NCBI GenBank assembly: GCA_035712245.1 | Contig: DASTBC010000035.1 | Span: 1-51,717 of the forward strand | Length of the DNA stretch: 51,717 nt | Origin: Candidatus Eiseniibacteriota bacterium | GTDB taxonomy: Bacteria; Eisenbacteria; RBG-16-71-46; SZUA-252 | Reading direction: 5' to 3' | In this document: positions 260 through 49,806 of the stretch, one piece after another | How positions within the stretch are numbered: position 1 is the first letter of the stretch | Layout: every line of letters starts with the position of its first letter | Notes under the pieces: generated by a model | Told to the model about the DNA's origin: nothing | What the model saw: only the letters and a program-made list of their open reading frames with translations | Databases searched by the model: none | Program-made: the position numbers and the translations under genes

Positions 260-298
260 TCCGGAGGCAGACGCTCTATCCAGCTGAGCTACGGGCGC
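260..298 (-). pseudogene. 5' half of a tRNA-Arg(CCG)-like gene, truncated directly after the anticodon loop
   Basis: The reverse complement reads GCGCCCGTAGCTCAGCTGGATAGAGCGTCTGCCTCCGGA. This covers the acceptor 5' strand, the D-arm, the anticodon-stem 5' strand and a CUCCGGA loop (anticodon CCG). The following bases (GAATACGAGCGCATCACC...) cannot pair as an anticodon-stem 3' strand, T-arm or acceptor 3' strand. Confidence 0.6.
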
Positions 299-358
299 TC
301 GGGGCGCATCCTACCAAATCCGGGAATCTCGGTCGATGCGACCTCCCAAGGGTCACTT

Positions 359-645: not shown

Positions 646-3600
646 ATGAGCGCCCAGGCACACCCGACGCACCTTGTCGTCGTCGGATCCTCGGCCGGCG
701 GGGTCGAGGCGCTCGGCACGCTGGTCTCCGGCCTCCCCGAAGATTTCCCCGCCGCCGTCGTCCTCGCGCAGCACCTCGACCCGGGCCGCCCCAGCTTTCT
801 CCCGGGGATCCTGGAGCGCCGCTCCAAGCTGCCCGTGATCGCGATCGCCGGGGAGGCCGCGCTCGCGCCCGGGCACGTCTACGTCGTCCCGTCCAACCGG
901 CACGTGGTGATCCGGGACGGAAACGTGGTCGCGGAGGGGGACCACGCCGACCGGCCGTGCCCCTCCATCGATCTCCTCCTCTCCACGGCGGCCCGATCCT
1001 ACGGCGAGCGGCTGATCGCCGTGATCCTGACCGGTTCCGGGTCCGACGGGGCCGAGGGCGCCGTCGAGGTGAAGGAGCATGGTGGATGCGTCATCATCCA
1101 GAATCCCCGGACCGCGGCCCATCCCTCCATGCCCGCCGCCCTCCCTCCCACCGCGGTGGACCATGTCGCGGACATGGAGCAGATCGCTCCCCTGCTCCAC
1201 GACATCCTCCGCGGCGCCACCATCGAGAAGCAGATCGAGTCGGTGGACCGGAGCTCGCTGGACGGGGTGCTGCAGGTGCTGGCGCACCACGGGGGCATCG
1301 ATTTCAGTCAGTACAAGCCGGCGACCCTCCTCCGGCGGATTGGCCGCCGCATGGCGCTGACCCACACCCATCACCTCGAGGAGTACCGGGAGTACCTGAA
1401 CACGCACCCCGCGGAGGTCGACCAGCTCCTCAAGTCCTTCCTCATCAAGGTGACCGAGTTCTTCCGGGATCCCGAAGCGTTCCGCGCGCTGGAGCGCGAG
1501 ATCATGCCGCGCCTGATCGAGGTGGGACGCGAGCGCGGGCGCGTGCTCCGGCTCTGGTCCGCCGGAAGCGCCACGGGCGAGGAAGCGTACTCGATGGGGC
1601 TCCTCCTCGCGGGCATGCTGGGACGCGAGCTGCCGGAGTGGAACATCCGAATCTTCGCGACGGACGTGGACGAGGAGGCGGTGTCCTACGCGAGACGCGG
1701 CTACTACCCCCTGACGGTGCTGCGAAATCTCCCCGCGGAGTACAAGGCAAACTACTTCGAGCCCGTGGATCACGGTCTTCGCATCGTGAAATCGCTGCGG
1801 CAGATGATCATCTTCGGACAGCAGGATCTCTCGCGCGGGGTCCCGTTTCCCCGGATCGACCTCGTCTCCTGCCGGAACCTGCTCATCTACTTCAAGCCGG
1901 ACCTCCAGCAGACGGTGCTGGACCTGTTCGCGTACTCCCTCCACCAGACACGGGGATACCTGTTCCTGGGCAAGGCCGAGACCGCGAGGCCGACCAAGGC
2001 CACGTTCGAGCTGGTGAACAAGAAGTGGAAGATCTACCGCTGCACGAGCGGGCCGCTCGCCATGGCCGGCCGCGCCCAGGCGAACGGCAAACACTCGGCG
2101 GCTCCGGCCGCGAGAACGGCTGCCGGTGAGACCCCCGTGCGGCCCGCGGAAGCGAGGGCCGGCGACGAGACGGATCTGCGGCGGATCGCGGAGCTCGCCC
2201 TGCGGTCGCTGCCCGTCGGCATCTGCGTGATCGATCGGTCCTACCGGATCCAAAGCATGAACATGGCCGCACGGAGGCTCCTGGGCGTGCGGGAAGCGGG
2301 CCTGGACCACGACTTCCTCCACACGGTGCGGGGCGTGCCCTACGACGAGGTGCGCACCGCGATCGACCGGGCGTTCCGCGAGCGGACGGTCATCGTCCTT
2401 CCGCAGCTGGAGCTGAGGGACGGCATGGGCGAGGCGCGCTTCATCACGATGCGGGCCATTCCCTTCGAGCCTGCCACGATCGATCTGGCTCTCATCTGCG
2501 TGGAGAACGCGACCGAGCTCGTCGAGGTCCGCCGCCGCCTCGACGCGGTTTTAGCGGAGCAGGGCCAGTTGGCGGAGGATCTGGGCGCGGCCAACCAGCG
2601 GCTGATGGAGATGAACAAGGAGCTCCAGGACGCGAACGAGGAGCTCCAGGCGTCGAACGAGGAGATGATGCTGACCCAGGAGGAGCTCCAGGCCACGAAC
2701 GAGGAGCTCGAGACGAACAACGAGGAGCTCCAGGCCACGAACGAGGAGCTGGAAACCACGAACGACGAGCTCCAGGCTCGAACCGGAGAGCTCCACGAGC
2801 TGACCCGCATCCTGACCGGCGAGCGGGTCCGCCTCACCGAGATCGTGGCCCAGGCGCCGTTCCACGTGATGGTGCTCCGGGGGCGGGGCCTCACGGTGGA
2901 GGCCCTGGCACAGCCGCTCGAGGAGCTCTTCCAGGTGACGACCGCCTCGGGCCGCCCCTTCGAGGAAATCTCCATGGAGCCCGCCCTCGAGTTGGTGCGG
3001 ATCGGAGTCCGCCGCGCCTTCGTCGAGGGACGGGCCTGGTACTCCGAGGAGACGCGGGTCATCCGGGGTCGTGCCGAGCGCTTCTACAAGTTCTCGGCCG
3101 TTCCGACCCACGTGGCCGACGGCACGGTCGACGGCGTCGTCCTCTACGTGGAGGACGTCACGGAACGGCGGCGGCAGGAGGAGGCCGACCGGCTGGGCAA
3201 GGTGAAGCTCATGCTGGAGCACGCGAACCAGCTCGCGATGGGCCTCTTCACCTCGGAAGGAATGCTCCTTCACGCGACGGAACAGTACCTCGCCATACTG
3301 ACCCGCCTCCGGAAGATCGATCCCCGAGACGCGGCGGGACAGTCGTGGGCGCGCCTCTGGTTCGGCGGGCCGGAGACGGCCGATGCGTTCGACCGGGTGG
3401 TGCGGGACGGCCGCCCGGAGCGCTTGCACGAGGTCCGGGTTTACGCGGTCGAGGAAGACTCCATCTGGGACTGCACCCTCATCCCGATCACGCAGCACGG
3501 AGGCGGTCGGGTGGACTACGTCGTCCTCACCGCCGTGGAGGTGACCCGACCCGTGCTGGCGCGGGAGGCGCTCGAGCAGGTGGACCGGCTCAAGGACAAC

Positions 3601-4296
3601 TTCCTGTCGCTCGCGAGCCACGAGCTCCGGACTCCCCTCACGCCCCTCGCCGCGTACGTGGAGCTCCTCGCACACCTTCTCTCCGAGAAACAGCGCGATC
3701 CGGAGTGGGAGCGGCAGATGAACGACGTCGTCGGCAAGTTCCGCCGGCAGATCGGCTACCTGTCCCGTCTCACCGAGGACCTCGTCGACATCTCACGGAT
3801 CCGCTCCGGGCACCTGTCGCTCGACCTGAAGCCCGTCAGCCTGAAACGGATCGTCGAGGAGGGGCGGGATCAGGCGCTCGCTCTCGGACGCGACCCGACG
3901 ATCGATATGGAGGTGGACGCTTCGAACGACCTGCTGGTCGAGGCCGACGAGATGCGCCTGATCCAGGTCGTCTGGAATCTCCTGTCCAACACCCAGAAGC
4001 ACGCGCCGTCCGCCAAGAACGTCAAGCTCCGCGTCCGCGAGCGCACCTCGAACGGACAGAAGTGGGGCCGCGTCGAGGTCGAGGACAGCGGTTCCGGGAT
4101 CCCTGAGGCATACCGGAAGGATCTCTTCCAGCGCTTCCTCAGCCCCCAGCCCCGGGAAGCGCGCTCGGCGCGGTCCGGTCTCGGCCTGGGCCTCTTCATC
4201 TCCGCGCGGATCGTCGAGCAGCATGGGGGCAGGATCGGGGTGGAACACCTGGACCCGGGGACGCTGATCTACTTCGAGCTTCCGCTCCTGGCCTGA
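646..4296 (+). CDS. CheB methylesterase - CheR methyltransferase - PAS - histidine kinase fusion protein
   Basis: ORF 472..4296. The N-terminus HLVVVGSSAGGVEAL...VLAQHLDP is CheB-like. SAGSATGEEAYSMGLLLA is a CheR SAM-binding motif. An EELQATN heptad coiled coil follows, then PAS-like regions, the HisKA H-box SHELRTPLTP and a HATPase region (VEDSGSGIP...GLGLGLFI). Start chosen at ATG 646 (MSAQAHPTHLVVVG); ATG 472 is the alternative. Confidence 0.9.
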   Translation: MSAQAHPTHLVVVGSSAGGVEALGTLVSGLPEDFPAAVVLAQHLDPGRPSFLPGILERRSKLPVIAIAGEAALAPGHVYVVPSNRHVVIRDGNVVAEGDHADRPCPSIDLLLSTAARSYGERLIAVILTGSGSDGAEGAVEVKEHGGCVIIQNPRTAAHPSMPAALPPTAVDHVADMEQIAPLLHDILRGATIEKQIESVDRSSLDGVLQVLAHHGGIDFSQYKPATLLRRIGRRMALTHTHHLEEYREYLNTHPAEVDQLLKSFLIKVTEFFRDPEAFRALEREIMPRLIEVGRERGRVLRLWSAGSATGEEAYSMGLLLAGMLGRELPEWNIRIFATDVDEEAVSYARRGYYPLTVLRNLPAEYKANYFEPVDHGLRIVKSLRQMIIFGQQDLSRGVPFPRIDLVSCRNLLIYFKPDLQQTVLDLFAYSLHQTRGYLFLGKAETARPTKATFELVNKKWKIYRCTSGPLAMAGRAQANGKHSAAPAARTAAGETPVRPAEARAGDETDLRRIAELALRSLPVGICVIDRSYRIQSMNMAARRLLGVREAGLDHDFLHTVRGVPYDEVRTAIDRAFRERTVIVLPQLELRDGMGEARFITMRAIPFEPATIDLALICVENATELVEVRRRLDAVLAEQGQLAEDLGAANQRLMEMNKELQDANEELQASNEEMMLTQEELQATNEELETNNEELQATNEELETTNDELQARTGELHELTRILTGERVRLTEIVAQAPFHVMVLRGRGLTVEALAQPLEELFQVTTASGRPFEEISMEPALELVRIGVRRAFVEGRAWYSEETRVIRGRAERFYKFSAVPTHVADGTVDGVVLYVEDVTERRRQEEADRLGKVKLMLEHANQLAMGLFTSEGMLLHATEQYLAILTRLRKIDPRDAAGQSWARLWFGGPETADAFDRVVRDGRPERLHEVRVYAVEEDSIWDCTLIPITQHGGGRVDYVVLTAVEVTRPVLAREALEQVDRLKDNFLSLASHELRTPLTPLAAYVELLAHLLSEKQRDPEWERQMNDVVGKFRRQIGYLSRLTEDLVDISRIRSGHLSLDLKPVSLKRIVEEGRDQALALGRDPTIDMEVDASNDLLVEADEMRLIQVVWNLLSNTQKHAPSAKNVKLRVRERTSNGQKWGRVEVEDSGSGIPEAYRKDLFQRFLSPQPREARSARSGLGLGLFISARIVEQHGGRIGVEHLDPGTLIYFELPLLA
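2617..2784 (+). repeat. Eight tandem 21-bp units encoding a heptad (E-E-L-Q-A-T-N)n coiled coil inside the kinase gene
   Basis: Units begin at 2617, 2638, 2659, 2680, 2701, 2722, 2743 and 2764. 2680-2700 and 2722-2742 are identical (gaggagctccaggccacgaac), so 2680-2763 is effectively a 42-bp duplication. Confidence 0.85.
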
Positions 4297-40141: not shown

Positions 40142-41761
40142 TTACCCCGCAGAGGCGTTCGCGGGTCCACGGCCGGAAGTGTACCAGAGGGACCTCTCGA
40201 GAGGGCCCAGGCGGTCGGCCAGGAACCGGGACAGCCGGTTCGCGGCCTCCTCGCCAAGCTCCCCGCGCCCCGTATAGAGGATGACCACGGCGCCGTCATC
40301 GCCCTTCCCCAGGAGCTTGCTGCGAAGCTGTTCCAGCTTCACCTCGCTCTCGGCGCCCACGAAGCGTCCCCCGATCCAGTAGGTCCTCCAGACCCGGAGG
40401 TGCGTTCCCGGCCCGTCGAGGTCGATCTGGGCCGTGGGAACCGGCCCGTCCGCGGCGGGAACCATCCGCTGCACGAGCGCGGAGCGCTTCCACCCCTTGA
40501 TCTCCGGGTCCAGGAATCCATTCGCGGACTGGACGAGCTCGGCGCCCGGCTTCTGATCCCGGTAGTACGCCACGTAGAGTCCGACGATCTCGCCGTCGCG
40601 CTCGTAGCTCCTCGAGAATTCCGCGGCCGCTCCCACGTAGAAGGGCTTCCAGTCCCAGGGCGGAACGGCAAGCTCCTGCCAGGAGGCGTCGGCGGCCGGG
40701 CCGGCGTAGCGCACCTCCCCGGCGATCGGACGGTTGAACGCGCGCGCCACCGCCGTCCACGTCCCGCCGAGGACGATCACGGCGAGCGCGGCGGCCCAGA
40801 AGGCGGTGGCGGGAGCGGCCGGACGCGCGGCCGCGCCATCCGGCTCCGCCGAATCGGCGGCGGGATCCGGATCCGCCGCGCGCCGTCCGATCTGGAAGAT
40901 CACGACCAGCATGATCGCGAAGAGCACCCACCCGAGCCACTCGTGCTCATGGACCAGAGGGGATTTCATGTCCGTGAGCGCGCCGATCATCACGAGGATC
41001 CAGACGCGGACCCCGTTCATGAGGATGGCGGAGGCGACGCAGAACGCGAGGAAGAGGGCTCGCTTCACCGGTCTCCGGAAGTTCACGTACGCGAACACGG
41101 CGCCGACGGTGAGGATGGCGAGTAGGTACCGGAGCCCGCTGCACGCCTCCGTGATCGCCCACTCCCCGCCCGGCACCCGGAGGAAACGTCCGTCGAACGT
41201 GACGGGCATGCCGGTCCCATCGAGCACGGCCACGGCGAGCCTCCCCGCGACCGTGATCAGGATCGGGAAGAGCCCTTCCCCGAAGGGAACCATGAGCGCG
41301 AGGAAGGCGAGCGGATACGCGATGCGGCGGCACACGTCGGTGCCGAGGAGCGCCCACGCCGATCCGAGGATCATTCCCACGAGGCTCACCTGCTCCCCCG
41401 TGCCCAGCTGCGCCAGGTGGGAGAGGAACCACAGGGCACCCGAGACGAGGGCGAGGAGGACGCCCCAGACGGAAGGCCGGGGCGCGACCGTCCGGAGGAC
41501 GTCGCGGCGCGTCCAGACCATGTAGGCCGCGAGCGGCAGGACGAACCAGCAATGCGAGAAGCTCTCGTTGTCGGTCCAGACGCGGGCCATCGAACGGACC
41601 GTCTGAGGATGGAGCAGGACGAGCGCGAGGATCGTGATGCCGAGGAGGATCAGCGCGGAGCGCCACGGCATGGCCCGCGAGGCGTCCGTGGAGAGGCCGC
41701 CCAGGCGAGGAACGGGCGTGGCGCCGGGAGCGCCTTGGGTCGTGACGGGGGGTGTCGCCAA
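40142..41761 (-). CDS. Exosortase (EpsH/Xrt family) fused to a C-terminal EpsI-like domain
   Basis: Multi-pass membrane N-terminal half with exosortase signatures: NESFSHCWFVLPLAAYMVW, the catalytic-Cys motif ITEACSGLRYL and ILMNGVRVWILV. The C-terminal ~200-aa periplasmic domain after a final TM helix is consistent with EpsI. The start is uncertain (ATG 41761 or 41671). Confidence 0.75.
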   Translation of the reverse strand: MATPPVTTQGAPGATPVPRLGGLSTDASRAMPWRSALILLGITILALVLLHPQTVRSMARVWTDNESFSHCWFVLPLAAYMVWTRRDVLRTVAPRPSVWGVLLALVSGALWFLSHLAQLGTGEQVSLVGMILGSAWALLGTDVCRRIAYPLAFLALMVPFGEGLFPILITVAGRLAVAVLDGTGMPVTFDGRFLRVPGGEWAITEACSGLRYLLAILTVGAVFAYVNFRRPVKRALFLAFCVASAILMNGVRVWILVMIGALTDMKSPLVHEHEWLGWVLFAIMLVVIFQIGRRAADPDPAADSAEPDGAAARPAAPATAFWAAALAVIVLGGTWTAVARAFNRPIAGEVRYAGPAADASWQELAVPPWDWKPFYVGAAAEFSRSYERDGEIVGLYVAYYRDQKPGAELVQSANGFLDPEIKGWKRSALVQRMVPAADGPVPTAQIDLDGPGTHLRVWRTYWIGGRFVGAESEVKLEQLRSKLLGKGDDGAVVILYTGRGELGEEAANRLSRFLADRLGPLERSLWYTSGRGPANASAG

Positions 41762-41901
41762 TGGACCTCTATTTTCCCACAGGCGAACGGGTTCGCGCCA
41801 GGGGCCCCGAGTGCGGTCGAGGCGCGCTCGTCCCCCGAGCCCCCGTGCCGCGATCGGACGTGGGGGCTCGACCGAGGAGGCGCGGGACGACGCCGGCTCG
41901 A

Positions 41902-47487: not shown

Positions 47488-47786
47488 TCCTGAGCCTCCG
47501 CTCCTGTAACCCAGGGGTAACACGGCTCCCGGGCCGGCGTACAAAGGAACTGGCCGTACCGCCAGTTGCTTTCTTGACACGTGTCGGTATCGTCGACGCT
47601 CCGCACGCCCAACAATACTGGATGGGCATTGCCGCGAGACCCCACCGTCAACGCGCACTCCAAACAGGGCGCCCTAGCGGTTGCAGTGTTGCTGTTGTCA
47701 CAAAGGGTAATGACGCCGACCTACACATGCGGGACGGTACGTTCGCGGATCGGACAAGGCGAGAGAGTTCGACGAGTGCAGGTGTG

Positions 47787-47828
47787 TGCCCCCGGAGTGA
47801 TCCGAACACCCAGCCCACGATTTAGGAG
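47787..47828 (-). pseudogene. Diverged 3' half-copy of tRNA-Arg(CCT), from anticodon loop to discriminator (att-like repeat)
   Basis: tgcccccggAgtgatCcgaacacccAgcccacgAtttaggag aligns with 48386-48427 of the intact tRNA, with 4 mismatches in 42 nt. The mismatches fall in the T-stem (giving G-U), T-loop, variable loop and anticodon stem. No matching acceptor 5' strand or D-arm follows. Confidence 0.7.
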
Positions 47829-47925
47829 ATCAATCGGTCTCTTGTCCCGCTGTAATCCCGCCGAGTCTCGCAGTGTCCCGTTTCACCTGTACCAGAGCGA
47901 GCCGATAGGCTACTTCTAGGGTACA

Positions 47926-48153
47926 GTGTCTTCAGAGATGCCGCTTCCTGGGTGCCTATCTGTACGAATGCCGGATCACGAGAAGCGCTTCATTCGGGAG
48001 CGTGCGGAGTGCTACGGGCTTACCATGAGTGAATACTTGGTGCTGGCGGTGCCGCATTTCGACTGTTCTGGACTACCACTCCAGGTGATCCCGCCTCTCC
48101 CCGTCGATCCCTGGGGGCCGCCAAGCCAAAGGGCAAAGAAATGCCCCCTATGA
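47926..48153 (+). CDS. MobC-like ribbon-helix-helix protein (mobilisation/relaxosome accessory-like)
   Basis: LSVRMPDHEKRFIRERAECYGLTMSEYLVLAV fits the MobC/RHH pattern (beta-strand, then E..l...A...G.s.SeYl). Start uncertain (GTG 47926, ATG 47937 or ATG 47965). Low-GC context. Confidence 0.5.
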   Translation: MSSEMPLPGCLSVRMPDHEKRFIRERAECYGLTMSEYLVLAVPHFDCSGLPLQVIPPLPVDPWGPPSQRAKKCPL

Positions 48154-48317
48154 GCGTCTGGGAGGGCATCGGCTTAACAGTCCTCATTTTCATTGCCTAT
48201 ATCTTTCACCCCATCACCGGCCTCAAGAGACTCATCGATCGCACCAAAGAGCAGGAGAAAACAGAGCAGGAGGAGAGGGAAGAAAAAAGTAAGCCCCTGG
48301 AGCCACGATCTCCCTAG
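48150..48317 (+). CDS. 55-aa single-pass membrane micro-protein (hypothetical)
   Basis: ATG 48150 overlaps the upstream stop (ATGA). Sequence: MSVWEGIGLTVLIFIAYIFHPITGLKRLIDRTKEQEKTEQEEREEKSKPLEPRSP, one TM helix plus a charged tail. It is too short for the ORF track and competes with the frame of ORF 48193..48384. Confidence 0.3.
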   Translation: MSVWEGIGLTVLIFIAYIFHPITGLKRLIDRTKEQEKTEQEEREEKSKPLEPRSP

Positions 48318-48385
48318 GGGCCGATGTTTCTTTGCGGGAGTCTACAGGGGGAACTACAAGCGGAAGCCCGACGAAGCTAAGTAAG

Positions 48386-48459
48386 TGCCCCCGGGGTGAT
48401 TCGAACACCCGGCCCACGGTTTAGGAAACCGCTGCTCTGTCCACCTGAGCTACGGGGGC
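48386..48459 (-). tRNA. tRNA-Arg(CCT)
   Basis: The reverse complement is GCCCCCGTAGCTCAGGTGGACAGAGCAGCGGTTTCCTAAACCGTGGGCCGGGTGTTCGAATCACCCCGGGGGCA. Acceptor GCCCCCG/CGGGGGC, D-arm GCTC..GAGC, anticodon stem GCGGT/ACCGT with loop TTCCTAA, and T-arm GGGTG-TTCGAAT-CACCC. CCA is not encoded. Confidence 0.9.
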
Positions 48460-48855: not shown

Positions 48856-48900
48856 CACCTGAGCTACGGGGGCGCAAAGGGTTACGCGTGCAGTGTACTG
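48856..48900 (-). pseudogene. Partial copy of the tRNA-Arg(CCT) 5' end (22 nt) plus its upstream flank
   Basis: cacctgagctacgggggcgcaa (48856-48877) is identical to 48442-48463. The next ~25 nt (agggttacgcgtgcagtgtactgc) resemble the flank of the intact gene (ggacttagcgcgtagtgtagcgc). Confidence 0.65.
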
Positions 48901-49265
48901 CTTCCCGCCGTACGAGGGCATCGGTCGGCTTCGCGGGTGAGGTCATTGGTGCTGTCGCAACCGCTCGAAGCTGTCTCCCGGCCGGGACCTGCCAGTCTCG
49001 ATCGCACTCGCGGCACGTTCTCGAATTGTCTCGACCGCGACGGCGTCTGGGCGTTCGACGCTGTGCCAAGGTCAGGCTCGAGGCGGGATACCGCTTCATC
49101 CCCTGCCGCGCGGTTGACTAAGGAGCCACAGAACAGGGCGGGAATCCGTTCCCGACAGAAAGTGGTGCTCGGCCATCGTTGTGGTACTTTTTGCCTCCGT
49201 GATCCGCCATGTGGATGGGGGGATTCGCAGCTCCATCGGATTTCCACCAAAGGAAGGAGTTCTCG

Positions 49266-49562
49266 TTGAATCCTCGTGACAGAAAGTTACGCCTACGGAA
49301 GTCCACCATTCGAGATCTCACGATGAGGGACGCGAGCAGAGCTCGAGGTGGCGTCCTCCTCGACACTAAGGCTGACACACAAAATCCCTGTATCACCCCA
49401 GCCACACACATATGGAATGGCTGCGACGAACTGACCTTCGGTCACACCGAATGCGACGCAACAGAATGCCTCACTGAATGCCTTGATACGTACGCGATTA
49501 GCTGCGGAGTCTCCTGCTGGGACTGTGACTCCATGGCCACGTGCCCCACTAGGAACTGTTGA
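49266..49562 (+). CDS. Cysteine-rich peptide precursor with a double-glycine-type leader (RiPP/bacteriocin-like), 98 aa
   Basis: An aggaaggag RBS, a 6-nt spacer and TTG 49266. The leader (M)NPRDRKLRLRKSTIRDLTMRDASRARGG has Leu at -12 and Asp at -8 relative to GG. The core VLLDTKADTQNPCITPATHIWNGCDELTFGHTECDATECLTECLDTYAISCGVSCWDCDSMATCPTRNC has 10 Cys and 14 Ser/Thr. A strong hairpin lies 24 nt downstream. The 19 upstream codons of ORF 49209..49562 are not needed. Confidence 0.6.
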   Translation: MNPRDRKLRLRKSTIRDLTMRDASRARGGVLLDTKADTQNPCITPATHIWNGCDELTFGHTECDATECLTECLDTYAISCGVSCWDCDSMATCPTRNC

Positions 49563-49585: not shown

Positions 49586-49621
49586 ACTCGGGGTGTCTGC
49601 GATGCTGCAGACACCCCGAGT
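49586..49621 (+). terminator. Strong hairpin terminator after the peptide gene
   Basis: Perfect 15-bp stem actcggggtgtctgc / gcagacaccccgagt with loop gatgct, followed by tgcattcct (weak U-tract). Confidence 0.6.
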
Positions 49622-49766: not shown

Positions 49767-49806
49767 TTAGGAAACCGCTGCTCTGTCCACCTGAGCTACG
49801 GGGCGC
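49767..49806 (-). pseudogene. 5' half-copy of tRNA-Arg(CCT), from anticodon loop to the 5' end, with a 1-nt deletion in the acceptor
   Basis: ttaggaaaccgctgctctgtccacctgagctacgggg (49767-49803) is identical to 48421-48457. The G-run is one base shorter than in the intact gene. No 3' half is adjacent. Confidence 0.75.

What the first reader, a model, noticed from the sequence alone, without database searches (positions are those of the whole stretch)
49266..49562. Orphan 98-aa peptide with a double-glycine-type leader and a 10-Cys, Thr-rich core: a candidate RiPP or bacteriocin precursor without a nearby maturase
The strong RBS with TTG start, the 15-bp terminator hairpin and the island location argue for a real stand-alone gene. 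The leader K-L-R-L-R-K-S-T-I-R-D-L-T...A-R-G-G matches the K-L-x-L-x-K-x-T-I-x-x-L...GG pattern. I recall that pattern from GG-type natural-product precursors of Bacteroidota/FCB bacteria and myxobacteria, and here Leu is at -12 and Asp at -8 from the GG. The 69-aa core has 10 Cys, 11 Thr and 3 Ser, including a thrice-repeated TEC motif (HTECDATECLTEC) and a C-terminal CPTRNC. That composition is compatible with thioether (lanthipeptide, sacti/ranthipeptide) or multi-disulfide chemistry. No LanB/C/M/KC, radical-SAM/SPASM enzyme or C39-peptidase ABC exporter is encoded in the window. Processing would need trans-acting genes, or the peptide belongs to an uncharacterised class.
Basis: partly seen in the sequence, partly recalled or inferred. 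Interest (0 to 1): 0.75.

Follow-up and report, generated by a model that had tools for sequence, protein, structure and literature searches.

The report
Orphan lanthipeptide-type precursor in tRNA islet
A small unannotated gene in an uncultured soil bacterium (Candidatus Eisenbacteria) encodes a conserved precursor peptide of the lanthipeptide type; it sits alone in a tiny tRNA-flanked DNA insert, so the enzymes that would mature it must be encoded elsewhere.

Summary
A 98-codon ORF (TTG 49266 to stop 49562) has a strong RBS, a 15-bp hairpin, a 29-aa basic leader ending in GG, and a 69-aa acidic core with 10 Cys, 11 Thr and 3 Ser. It is a real gene: dN/dS is 0.18 against its nearest homolog, and more than 50 sequence clusters of 61-114-aa peptides share the leader MNPRDRKLRLRKsTVRnL..A...RGG with hypervariable Cys/Thr-rich cores. 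All are unnamed and nearly all metagenomic.

The leader fits the LxLxKx5L...GG motif described for class I lanthipeptide precursors of Bacteroidetes. It scores below threshold against NCBIfam NF038153, the class I lanthipeptide leader model (window 12.7 bits, family best 21.5, cut-off 22).

In 3 of 12 homolog loci a stand-alone LanC cyclase lies directly next to the peptide. In 2 loci a TPR-CHAT protein and an S8 protease lie upstream. No LanB was seen in any locus.

The window is an entire Eisenbacteria MAG contig and encodes no maturase or exporter. The gene lies in a low-GC insert bracketed by an exact 37-nt repeat of the 5' half of tRNA-Arg(CCT). Five of 12 family loci abut tRNA genes.

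Verdict: a new, divergent member of a known kind, most likely a trans-matured lanthipeptide precursor carried as mobile cargo. Thioether chemistry is unproven.

The parts
49252..49259 (+). Shine-Dalgarno sequence GGAAGGAG, 6 nt upstream of the TTG start
   Evidence: Read directly. GGAG-type sites sit at the same distance before every homolog gene examined.
49266..49352 (+). Leader peptide, 29 codons: M(TTG)NPRDRKLRLRKSTIRDLTMRDASRARGG. It carries the LxLxKx5L motif (L8, L10, K12, L18) and ends in GG. Leu is at -12, Asp at -8, Ala at -7 and Ala at -4.
   Evidence: The relaxed motif is present in 57 of 58 family members, and GG follows 9 residues later in 49 of 58. The NF038153 alignment runs from residues 5-29 to model positions 8-32 of 32.
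49353..49559 (+). Core peptide, 69 codons. It is acidic (11 D+E against 2 K+R) with 10 Cys, 11 Thr and 3 Ser. It includes the VLLDTK box, HTECDATECLTEC and CPTRNC.
   Evidence: Core dN/dS is 0.12 against P0001. The Cys scaffold is shared with P0001 and P0002.
49560..49562 (+). Stop codon TGA
49586..49621 (.). 15-bp G+C-rich hairpin 24 nt after the stop. It is a putative terminator with no U-tract on the + strand.
   Evidence: z = -6.8.
49767..49803 (-). Displaced fragment of the 5' half of tRNA-Arg(CCT). It is 37 nt, 100% identical to 48421-48457, and ends in the anticodon loop. This is the att-like boundary of the insert on the side away from the intact tRNA.
   Evidence: There is no tRNA 3' half next to it.
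48856..48884 (-). Second, shorter copy of the tRNA-Arg 5' end plus its upstream flank (29 nt, 90%; the first 22 nt are exact). It splits the insert into segments of 398 bp and 882 bp. The peptide gene lies in the 882-bp segment.
48385..48459 (-). Intact tRNA-Arg(CCT) gene, the integration target (tDNA)
   Evidence: ARAGORN. Rfam RF00005, 64.5 bits.
47786..47827 (-). Copy of the tRNA-Arg 3' half (42 nt, 90%), downstream of the tRNA. It marks an older 3'-side islet holding a NikA-like ribbon-helix-helix ORF (47926-48153) and a 58-aa membrane ORF (48141-48317).

Best explanation
The gene encodes a precursor of a class I lanthipeptide-type RiPP that is matured in trans.

Proposed pathway (only the sequence features in step 1 are shown here; the other steps rest on the homolog loci or on inference):
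1. The ribosome makes a 98-aa peptide. Its 29-aa basic leader (LxLxKx5L...GG) is the handle for the modifying enzymes and the exporter.
2. Thr and Ser residues of the acidic core are dehydrated, and a LanC-type zinc cyclase adds the ten Cys thiols to them, giving a polycyclic thioether peptide. Both enzymes would be encoded elsewhere in the genome.
3. The leader is removed after Gly29, either by a C39-peptidase ABC exporter or by an S8 protease of the kind found beside two relatives. The conserved h-D-T-K box just after GG may be a second processing site.

The gene is horizontally acquired cargo. It lies in a roughly 1.3-kb, integrase-less, low-GC insert between an intact tRNA-Arg(CCT) gene and an exact 37-nt copy of that tRNA's 5' half. 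Many relatives with the same leader but different cores sit the same way next to tRNA genes. In that respect the family resembles the prochlorosins: one conserved leader, many dispersed and diversified cores, and shared enzymes.
For: Real gene: homologs exist; dN/dS is 0.18 with dS > 1 while the flanks are unrelated.

Family: 53 profile hits at E <= 1e-3, of which about 50 are peptides of 61-114 aa that start at residue 1 with the same leader and have hypervariable cores.

Leader type: the LxLxKx5L...GG motif is published for class I LanAs (PMC7268733). It is present strictly in 42 of 58 members and in relaxed form in 57 of 58. NF038153 lant_leader_L1a hits 26 of 54 members, always aligned so that the model ends at the GG. 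Leu-12, an acidic residue at -8 and small hydrophobic residues at -7 and -4 fit the PCAT recognition rule (PMC6363468).

Enzyme association:
- A LanC-like gene (PF05147, E 3e-31 to 3e-42, with the WCYG and CHG zinc motifs visible) lies directly next to family peptides in L001, in L007-L010 (four samples) and in L015.
- A LanC 40% identical to these sits in a full cluster with LanB, two LanC genes, a C39-ABC exporter and HlyD.
- An S8 protease plus a TPR-CHAT protein lie upstream of two members.

Chemistry proxies: S+T >= Cys in 56 of 57 cores, and Cys number shows no even bias (31 even, 26 odd), which argues against all-disulfide peptides.

Mobility:
- GC3 is 0.61 against about 0.90 in host genes.
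- In eight further loci where neighbours could be compared, peptide GC3 is lower than that of every neighbouring host gene, and the adjacent LanC and S8 genes are lower than most neighbours.
- tRNA genes lie within 400 nt in 5 of 12 loci. My rough binomial estimate is P about 2e-7, assuming a 1.2% chance per locus.
- In L006 a 47-nt copy of the tRNA-Ser 5' half brackets an 885-bp insert holding the peptide gene. In the window the corresponding segment is 882 bp.
- An integrase fragment lies beside the L003 member.
Against: - No dehydratase (LanB, LanM, LanKC or LanL) is seen next to any family member. L015 has 10 kb downstream of its LanC with none.
- The window, which is a complete contig, has no LanC, LanB, PCAT or S8 gene.
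- The window peptide scores only 12.7 bits against NF038153 (cut-off 22), and as a full-length sequence it does not hit at all.
- The core is strongly acidic, whereas most known lantibiotics are cationic.
- The three closest relatives all keep exactly 10 Cys. The window peptide lacks their first Cys and has an extra C-terminal one, which would also suit a disulfide scaffold.
- The precursors in the full LanBC cluster could not be read, because no DNA was available.
- There is no chemical or expression evidence.
Confidence: 0.6

Rival explanations
1. It is an unmodified or only disulfide-bonded GG-leader bacteriocin or signal peptide. The leader serves only for export and cleavage by a C39-peptidase ABC transporter encoded elsewhere, and the ten Cys form five disulfides.
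For: - No modifying enzyme is present in the window.
- 7 of 12 family loci lack a LanC or S8 gene within the sequence available.
- The GG leader has Leu-12, Asp-8, Ala-7 and Ala-4.
- Exactly 10 Cys are kept in the window peptide, P0001, P0002 and L014, although the window peptide has lost one Cys position and gained another.
Against: - Across the family, Cys number is odd as often as even (26 against 31).
- LanC genes flanked by family precursors in three independent loci are hard to explain without thioether chemistry.
- The leader aligns to a lanthipeptide-specific leader model.
- AlphaFold2 gives no confident fold (pLDDT 44). This is weak evidence.
Confidence: 0.15
2. It is a precursor of another RiPP chemistry on Cys and Thr that uses the same kind of leader. 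Candidates are radical-SAM thioethers (sacti- or ranthipeptide; the TIGR04149 family is SPASM-associated) or YcaO-made azol(in)es.
For: - Cys/Thr-rich cores in relatives carry runs such as TCTCTCTC and CTCTCDTC.
- A few members give weak hits to Cys-repeat rSAM target models (TIGR04114 and TIGR04117, E 0.09-0.24).
- KLxLxKxT-type leaders were first tied to SPASM maturases (PMC8939145).
Against: - No rSAM, SPASM or YcaO gene appears in any of the 12 contexts or in the window.
- TIGR04149 and Pfam PF14406 do not hit at E <= 10.
- The enzymes actually found next to family members are LanC and S8 proteases.
Confidence: 0.12
3. It is a stranded relic. The gene is intact, but it arrived on a now-decayed integrative element, and this genome lacks cognate enzymes, so no mature product is made.
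For: - The insert has no integrase and is only about 1.3 kb.
- Decayed tRNA fragments lie around it.
- The gene is not annotated in the source record, whereas its neighbours are.
Against: - The ORF, RBS and hairpin are intact.
- Purifying selection is evident against the nearest homolog (dN/dS 0.18).
- The 37-nt att-like repeat is still 100% identical, which points to a recent event.
Confidence: 0.1

Closest known systems
Class I lanthipeptide precursors of Bacteroidota with LxLxKx5L...GG leaders (the pinensin group; Walker et al. 2020, PMC7268733; NCBIfam NF038153 lant_leader_L1a)
   Same: - The leader motif L-x-L-x-K-x5-L is followed by GG.
- The core is rich in Cys and Ser/Thr.
- Relatives lie next to stand-alone LanC genes.
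- The host belongs to the FCB group of phyla, as Bacteroidota does (my own knowledge of taxonomy, not tested here).
   Different: - All members score below the NF038153 cut-off (window 12.7 bits, best 21.5, cut-off 22).
- The leader is Arg-rich and starts with a conserved MNPRDR.
- No LanB or C39 exporter was seen next to any member.
- The core is long (69 aa), very acidic and has ten Cys.
- The window gene is a solitary ORF in a tRNA islet.
Prochlorosins (ProcA precursors with ProcM) of marine cyanobacteria
   Same: One conserved leader is combined with many hypervariable cores. Many precursor genes lie far from the single synthetase (noted in PMC7268733).
   Different: Prochlorosins use a Nif11-type leader and a class II LanM. 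Here the leader is of the class I type and the associated enzyme is a stand-alone LanC. Trans-maturation is inferred here, not shown.
Double-glycine leader peptides exported by PCAT/AMS transporters (class II bacteriocins, ComC; LahT150 study, PMC6363468)
   Same: GG cleavage motif with Leu at -12, an acidic residue at -8 and hydrophobic residues at -7 and -4.
   Different: There is no transporter in the window. Positions -7 and -4 are Ala rather than Leu and Val. The N-terminal half of the leader is strongly basic.
tDNA-integrated genomic islands with a displaced 5' tDNA fragment (Islander database, PMC4383910) and integrase-less CIME-type remnants
   Same: - An intact tRNA gene plus a same-orientation 5' fragment upstream of it.
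- The crossover is centred on the anticodon loop.
- The composition is foreign.
   Different: The insert has no integrase and is only 1.3 kb, so it fails Islander's integrase filter and its 2-kb length filter. The 5'-fragment configuration is itself rare (159 of 3919 islands). The CIME comparison rests on my own knowledge.

Membership tests
NCBIfam NF038153 lant_leader_L1a (class I lanthipeptide leader domain) | HMM score at or above the curated cut-off of 22 bits | tested here: not met
   The full-length peptide gives no hit at E <= 10. The leader alone scores 12.7 bits, E 0.11, residues 5-29 against model positions 8-32 of 32. Twenty-six of 54 family members hit, all below the cut-off (best 21.5 bits, E 1.9e-4).
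Class I lanthipeptide precursor (LanA) with LxLxKx5L...GG leader (Walker et al. 2020) | LxLxKx5L motif in the leader | tested here: met
   L8-R-L10-R-K12-STIRD-L18. The strict motif is in 42 of 58 family members and the relaxed form in 57 of 58. Motif definition from PMC7268733.
Class I lanthipeptide precursor (LanA) with LxLxKx5L...GG leader (Walker et al. 2020) | Leader ends in Gly-Gly, and the core holds Cys plus at least as many Ser/Thr | tested here: met
   G28-G29. The core has 10 Cys and 14 Ser+Thr.
Class I lanthipeptide precursor (LanA) with LxLxKx5L...GG leader (Walker et al. 2020) | Encoded with LanB dehydratase and LanC cyclase | tested here: not met
   Neither is in the 51.7-kb contig. 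LanC lies next to homologs in 3 of 12 loci. LanB was seen next to none. The rest of the genome is not available.
Class I lanthipeptide precursor (LanA) with LxLxKx5L...GG leader (Walker et al. 2020) | (Methyl)lanthionine crosslinks in the mature product | not testable with these tools
   Needs mass spectrometry or NMR of the peptide.
TIGR04149 GG-Bacteroidales natural-product precursor (SPASM/rSAM-associated) | HMM match and a neighbouring radical-SAM/SPASM maturase | tested here: not met
   No NCBIfam hit at E <= 10. No Pfam PF14406 hit. No rSAM gene in the window or in the 12 homolog contexts.
Double-glycine (PCAT/C39) leader peptides | GG, GA or GS cleavage site with Leu(-12), acidic(-8) and hydrophobic(-7, -4) residues | tested here: met
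   L18 is at -12, D22 at -8, A23 at -7 and A26 at -4, followed by G28-G29. Rule from PMC6363468. L18, A23, G28 and G29 are at least 90% conserved in the family.
Double-glycine (PCAT/C39) leader peptides | Cognate C39-peptidase ABC transporter | tested here: not met
   None in the window. One is present in the cluster of a LanC 40% identical to the family-associated LanC, but the precursors there could not be read.
tDNA-integrated genomic island (Islander criteria) | Intact tDNA plus a displaced end fragment, same orientation, 5' fragment upstream | tested here: met
   tRNA-Arg(CCT) is at 48385-48459 (-). The 37-nt exact 5'-half copy is at 49767-49803, upstream in tRNA orientation. Criteria from PMC4383910.
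tDNA-integrated genomic island (Islander criteria) | Tyrosine integrase gene inside the island, and length of at least 2 kb | tested here: not met
   The insert is 1309 bp and no integrase ORF was found: none of the ORFs scanned in the tRNA-Arg region or beside the insert hits an integrase, although the other ORFs inside the insert, which overlap one another, were not scanned against any library. An integrase C-terminal fragment is seen only beside the L003 relative.

The most novel reading that the evidence does not exclude
The family may be a mobile library of core peptides. Precursor-only cassettes of about 0.9 kb, or cassettes of LanC plus precursors, would be inserted at tRNA genes by an integrase of the rare type that displaces the 5' fragment. 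They would be matured by host enzymes that recognise the invariant leader. Because LanC-plus-precursor mini-clusters recur without any LanB, LanM, LanKC or LanL, dehydration may be carried out by an undescribed enzyme. That would make this a new lanthipeptide class in the uncultured phylum Eisenbacteria.
Probability: 0.15. Interest if true: 0.75.

Novelty: new member of a known kind. Interest (0 to 1): 0.42.

Why it matters
- It defines an unannotated peptide family of more than 50 sequence clusters, so far seen in soil, rhizosphere and farmland metagenomes and one Candidatus Eisenbacteria MAG. Gene callers and the curated leader models both miss it.
- It links the family to lanthipeptide machinery. 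This extends the LxLxKx5L...GG type of class I leader beyond Bacteroidota.
- It gives natural-product miners a leader profile for finding dispersed, orphan precursors.
- The repeated placement beside tRNA genes, twice with the rare 5'-fragment signature, suggests that precursor genes move on their own between genomes that share maturation enzymes. If confirmed, that would be a simple route to combinatorial diversification of peptide natural products.
- The acidic, ten-Cys cores are unlike typical cationic lantibiotics, so their activity is worth testing.

Tried and rejected
- NCBIfam and Pfam scans of the full peptide gave no family. The only Pfam line was HIRAN at E = 0.12, which I take as chance.
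- Two scans of the GTDB species-representative genomes were run. The first found nothing. The second, with a leader alignment, found one Eisenbacteria MAG.
- The IMG/VR viral contigs hold no family member. PHROGs give nothing for the islet ORFs. The element is therefore not recognisably phage.
- Exact look-ups of the window peptide (98-aa and 117-aa forms) show it is not on record.
- The upstream regions of 11 loci share no promoter. The sigma-54-like strings I noticed by eye have the wrong spacing, and the regex found none.
- No DNA similarity exists between flanks of different loci, so I rejected the idea of a conserved element backbone.
- P0004 (3048 aa, 56 matched stretches) is the translation of a tandem repeat and a false positive.
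- The AlphaFold2 model has pLDDT 44 and is uninformative. I ran no fold search on it.
- A PDB profile search gave no hit.
- Rfam finds only the tRNA in 47-50.1 kb.
- Spacing of Ser/Thr relative to Cys in the core is not different from shuffles, so no ring pattern can be inferred.
- Literature searches for Eisenbacteria or Gemmatimonadota lanthipeptides found nothing specific.
- I rejected functional coupling to the neighbouring tRNAs (LanB uses Glu-tRNA), because the tRNAs differ between loci (Arg, Ser, Cys, Leu) and none is Glu.

Full report
**1. The observation**

The TTG start is at 49266, preceded by GGAAGGAG at 49252-49259. The stop is at 49560-49562. A 15-bp hairpin (10 G-C pairs) lies at 49586-49621. 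Its 81-nt context folds at -42.3 kcal/mol with z = -6.8 against shuffles. The hairpin has no U-run on the + strand, so its role as a terminator is inferred.

The product is MNPRDRKLRLRKSTIRDLTMRDASRARGG followed by a 69-aa core. The core has 10 Cys, 11 Thr, 3 Ser, 11 Asp+Glu and only 2 Lys+Arg.

An open frame of this length is not remarkable in this DNA, since many overlapping ORFs exist. The case for a gene therefore rests on comparison:
- Two homologs share 57-62% identity over the full length, and a third shares only the leader.
- Against the homolog gene in L005, dN/dS is 0.18 (core 0.12) with dS > 1.
- DNA similarity stops at the ends of the coding region.
- Homologs begin M-N-P-R-D, which fits the TTG start and not the ATG at 49209.

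**2. Where it sits**

The window is an entire 51,717-bp contig of an NCBI MAG. Proteins at least 90% identical to its DXS, L20 and L35 are labelled Candidatus Eisenbacteria bacterium. The peptide is not in the protein collection although its neighbours are, so it appears to be unannotated.

The translated coding regions of the contig read as housekeeping genes. They include the trp operon, RecN, DXS, PheST, ThrRS, an exosortase and citrate synthase, with Pfam run on the uncertain genes between 34 and 45 kb and on the ORFs beside the peptide and at the contig end.

Host genes have GC by codon position of about 0.72/0.48/0.90. The peptide gene has 0.48/0.56/0.61. GC falls from 0.70 to 0.60 between 47 and 50 kb.

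The low-GC stretch is built around tRNA-Arg(CCT) at 48385-48459 on the minus strand. It contains these tRNA-derived repeats:
- An exact 37-nt copy of the tRNA's 5' half, ending in the anticodon loop, at 49767-49803.
- A shorter copy of the 5' end at 48856-48884.
- A 42-nt, 90% copy of the 3' half at 47786-47827.

The peptide gene therefore lies in a 1309-bp insert upstream of the tRNA, in its 882-bp distal segment. I found no integrase ORF in it, although its other overlapping ORFs were not scanned against any library.

The arrangement of tDNA, same-orientation 5' fragment upstream and anticodon-centred crossover is the island signature used by Islander. There the 5'-fragment form is rare, at 159 of 3919 islands (PMC4383910). 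The insert fails Islander's integrase and length criteria, so I treat it as a remnant or a non-autonomous islet.

**3. The family**

A profile of the four first sequences, run against 1.84 billion representative proteins, gave 53 hits at E <= 1e-3. One of them (P0004) is a translated satellite repeat and a false positive.

The rest are peptides of 61-114 aa that match from residue 1. Their consensus is MNPRDRKLRLRKxTVRxLxPxxAxxARGG, followed by unrelated Cys/Thr-rich acidic cores. The cores fall into several subgroups:
- an h-D-T-K box just after GG (17 of 58, including the window);
- GFFCTE;
- IICP[KR];
- ETRAFTNCxxC.

Every member whose sources were shown comes from a metagenome and is unnamed or 'hypothetical'. 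The only hit in the GTDB representative genomes is one Eisenbacteria MAG, locus L014.

**4. What kind of leader it is**

Walker et al. 2020 report that class I lanthipeptide precursors of Bacteroidetes carry an LxLxKx5L leader motif instead of FxLD. These leaders often end in GG, and a C39 protease is often encoded in the cluster (PMC7268733).

The window leader is L8-R-L10-R-K12-S-T-I-R-D-L18, and GG follows 9 residues later. The strict motif occurs in 42 of 58 members and the relaxed form in 57 of 58.

NCBIfam NF038153 (lant_leader_L1a, 'class I lanthipeptide') is hit by 26 of 54 members. The alignment is always residues 5-29 to model positions 8-32 of 32, and the score is always under the 22-bit cut-off, with a best of 21.5. 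The window leader alone scores 12.7 bits at E = 0.11.

The leader also fits the PCAT recognition rule of Leu-12, Glu-8, Leu-7 and Val-4, with L, D, A and A at those positions (PMC6363468).

**5. Enzymes next to relatives**

I examined twelve distinct loci.

| Context | Loci |
|---|---|
| Stand-alone LanC directly adjacent | L001 (upstream) |
| | L007-L010, four samples: tRNA-Cys, peptide, 408-aa LanC, then a second precursor with a variant leader |
| | L015: LanC followed by two precursors |
| TPR-CHAT protein plus S8 protease upstream | L011 and L016 |
| Sigma-54 activator upstream | L013 |
| No recognisable partner | the remaining loci, including a 29-kb contig (L006) |

The LanCs keep the WCYG and CHG zinc motifs. 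No LanB, LanM, LanKC or LanL appears in any locus. L015 has 10 kb downstream of its LanC without one.

A LanC 40% identical to the family-associated LanC lies in a classical cluster with LanB, two LanC genes, a C39-ABC exporter, HlyD and a sigma-54 activator, along with many small ORFs. No DNA could be read for that contig.

**6. tRNA association**

A tRNA gene lies within 400 nt of the peptide gene in 5 of 12 loci:
- window: Arg-CCT;
- L004 and L006: Ser-TGA;
- L007-L010: Cys-GCA;
- L014: Leu-CAA.

With an assumed 1.2% chance per locus, my rough binomial P is about 2e-7.

In L006 a 47-nt, 98% copy of the tRNA-Ser 5' half brackets an 885-bp insert that holds the peptide gene. This is the same rare configuration, and nearly the same size, as the 882-bp segment in the window. 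The gene is in the opposite orientation relative to the tRNA, and the flanks are unrelated.

An integrase C-terminal fragment lies 220 nt from the L003 peptide.

In eight further loci where neighbours could be compared, peptide GC3 is lower than that of every neighbouring host gene, and the adjacent LanC and S8 genes are lower than most neighbours.

**7. Interpretation**

The best-supported reading is a class I lanthipeptide-type precursor that has been acquired horizontally and would be matured in trans.
- Shown: the gene is real and under selection; the leader family exists; the published motif is matched; the curated class I leader model is hit below threshold; LanC is adjacent in three loci; the gene sits in a tDNA islet.
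- Inferred: dehydration, cyclisation, cleavage after G29, export and any bioactivity.

Cys parity (31 even, 26 odd) and S+T >= Cys in 56 of 57 cores favour thioethers over an all-disulfide scaffold. However, the window's own subgroup keeps exactly ten Cys, so a disulfide-bonded GG-leader bacteriocin remains a live rival.

Radical-SAM or YcaO chemistry has no support from gene neighbourhoods. A stranded relic cannot be excluded without the rest of the genome.

AlphaFold2 gave no confident fold (pLDDT 44). PDB, Rfam, PHROGs and IMG/VR added nothing.

**8. Novelty and score**

The finding is a new, divergent and so far unannotated branch of a known kind of system, in an uncultured phylum. It has two unusual features. 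Precursor genes ride in tiny tRNA-flanked inserts, and LanC-plus-precursor mini-clusters lack any known dehydratase. These features justify moderate interest (0.42).

Noticed in passing
window 262-300 (- strand): This is another fragment of a tRNA 5' half. Its reverse complement reads GCGCCCGTAGCTCAGCTGGATAGAGCGTCTGCCTCCGGA, which looks like tRNA-Arg(CCG). No 3' half follows and ARAGORN makes no tRNA call. It lies at the very start of the contig, which suggests a second 5'-fragment-type island boundary where the assembly breaks.
   Followed up: partly
window 47786-48384: This is an older islet on the 3' side of tRNA-Arg. It is bounded by a 42-nt, 90% copy of the tRNA 3' half. It holds a 75-aa ORF (47926-48153) with sub-threshold Pfam matches to the NikA-like (E 2.9e-5) and DUF6290 families (both below the curated cut-offs), and an overlapping 58-aa membrane/charged-tail ORF (48141-48317). 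The pair could be a toxin-antitoxin or mobilisation remnant.
   Followed up: partly
L007-L010 (tRNA-Cys at L007 1947-2021; peptide 2177-2515; LanC 2567-3793) and L015 593-2694: These are mini-clusters of a stand-alone LanC flanked by two precursors. One precursor has a variant leader, MSATP[RK]KL[RK]LNIQTLR.L...GG or AG. No LanB or other dehydratase lies within the sequence available, which is 10 kb downstream in L015.
   Followed up: partly
L011 1-1703 and L016 429-4693: The same gene pair, a TPR-CHAT (caspase-like) protein followed by a 454-aa S8 subtilase, lies directly upstream of two different family precursors. The pair could be a leader-processing or regulatory module. In L016, two proteins of 320 and 175 aa with no Pfam or NCBIfam match follow the peptide.
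   Followed up: partly
window 49353-49370 (VLLDTK) and the same position in 16 relatives: A conserved hydrophobic-D-T-K box lies immediately after the GG in 17 of 58 family members. It may mean that the recognition region extends past GG, or that a second cleavage removes a short N-terminal stub, as in the two-step processing of mersacidin. The mersacidin comparison is from my own knowledge and the abstract of PMC9127955.
   Followed up: no
family members P0013, P0015, P0018, P0026, P0036, P0041, P0042, P0052, P0053: The core motif (E/Q)TRAFTNCxxC recurs in otherwise unrelated cores. It may be a shared ring or target-binding module.
   Followed up: no
window 49266-49562 versus the source record: The peptide gene appears not to be annotated in the deposited MAG. 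Neighbouring proteins of the same contig are in the protein collection with NCBI as source, but neither the 98-aa nor the 117-aa product is.
   Followed up: yes
L013 1-498 and the cluster around P0061: A sigma-54-dependent activator (AAA lid plus HTH_8) lies directly upstream of family member P0052, and one also lies inside the LanB/LanC/PCAT cluster of a related LanC. No sigma-54 promoter with correct spacing was found upstream of the window peptide.
   Followed up: partly
window 40145-41767 (- strand): An exosortase EpsH fused to an EpsI-like DUF3485 domain lies in the housekeeping part of the contig. It is unrelated to the peptide, which has no PEP-CTERM motif.
   Followed up: no
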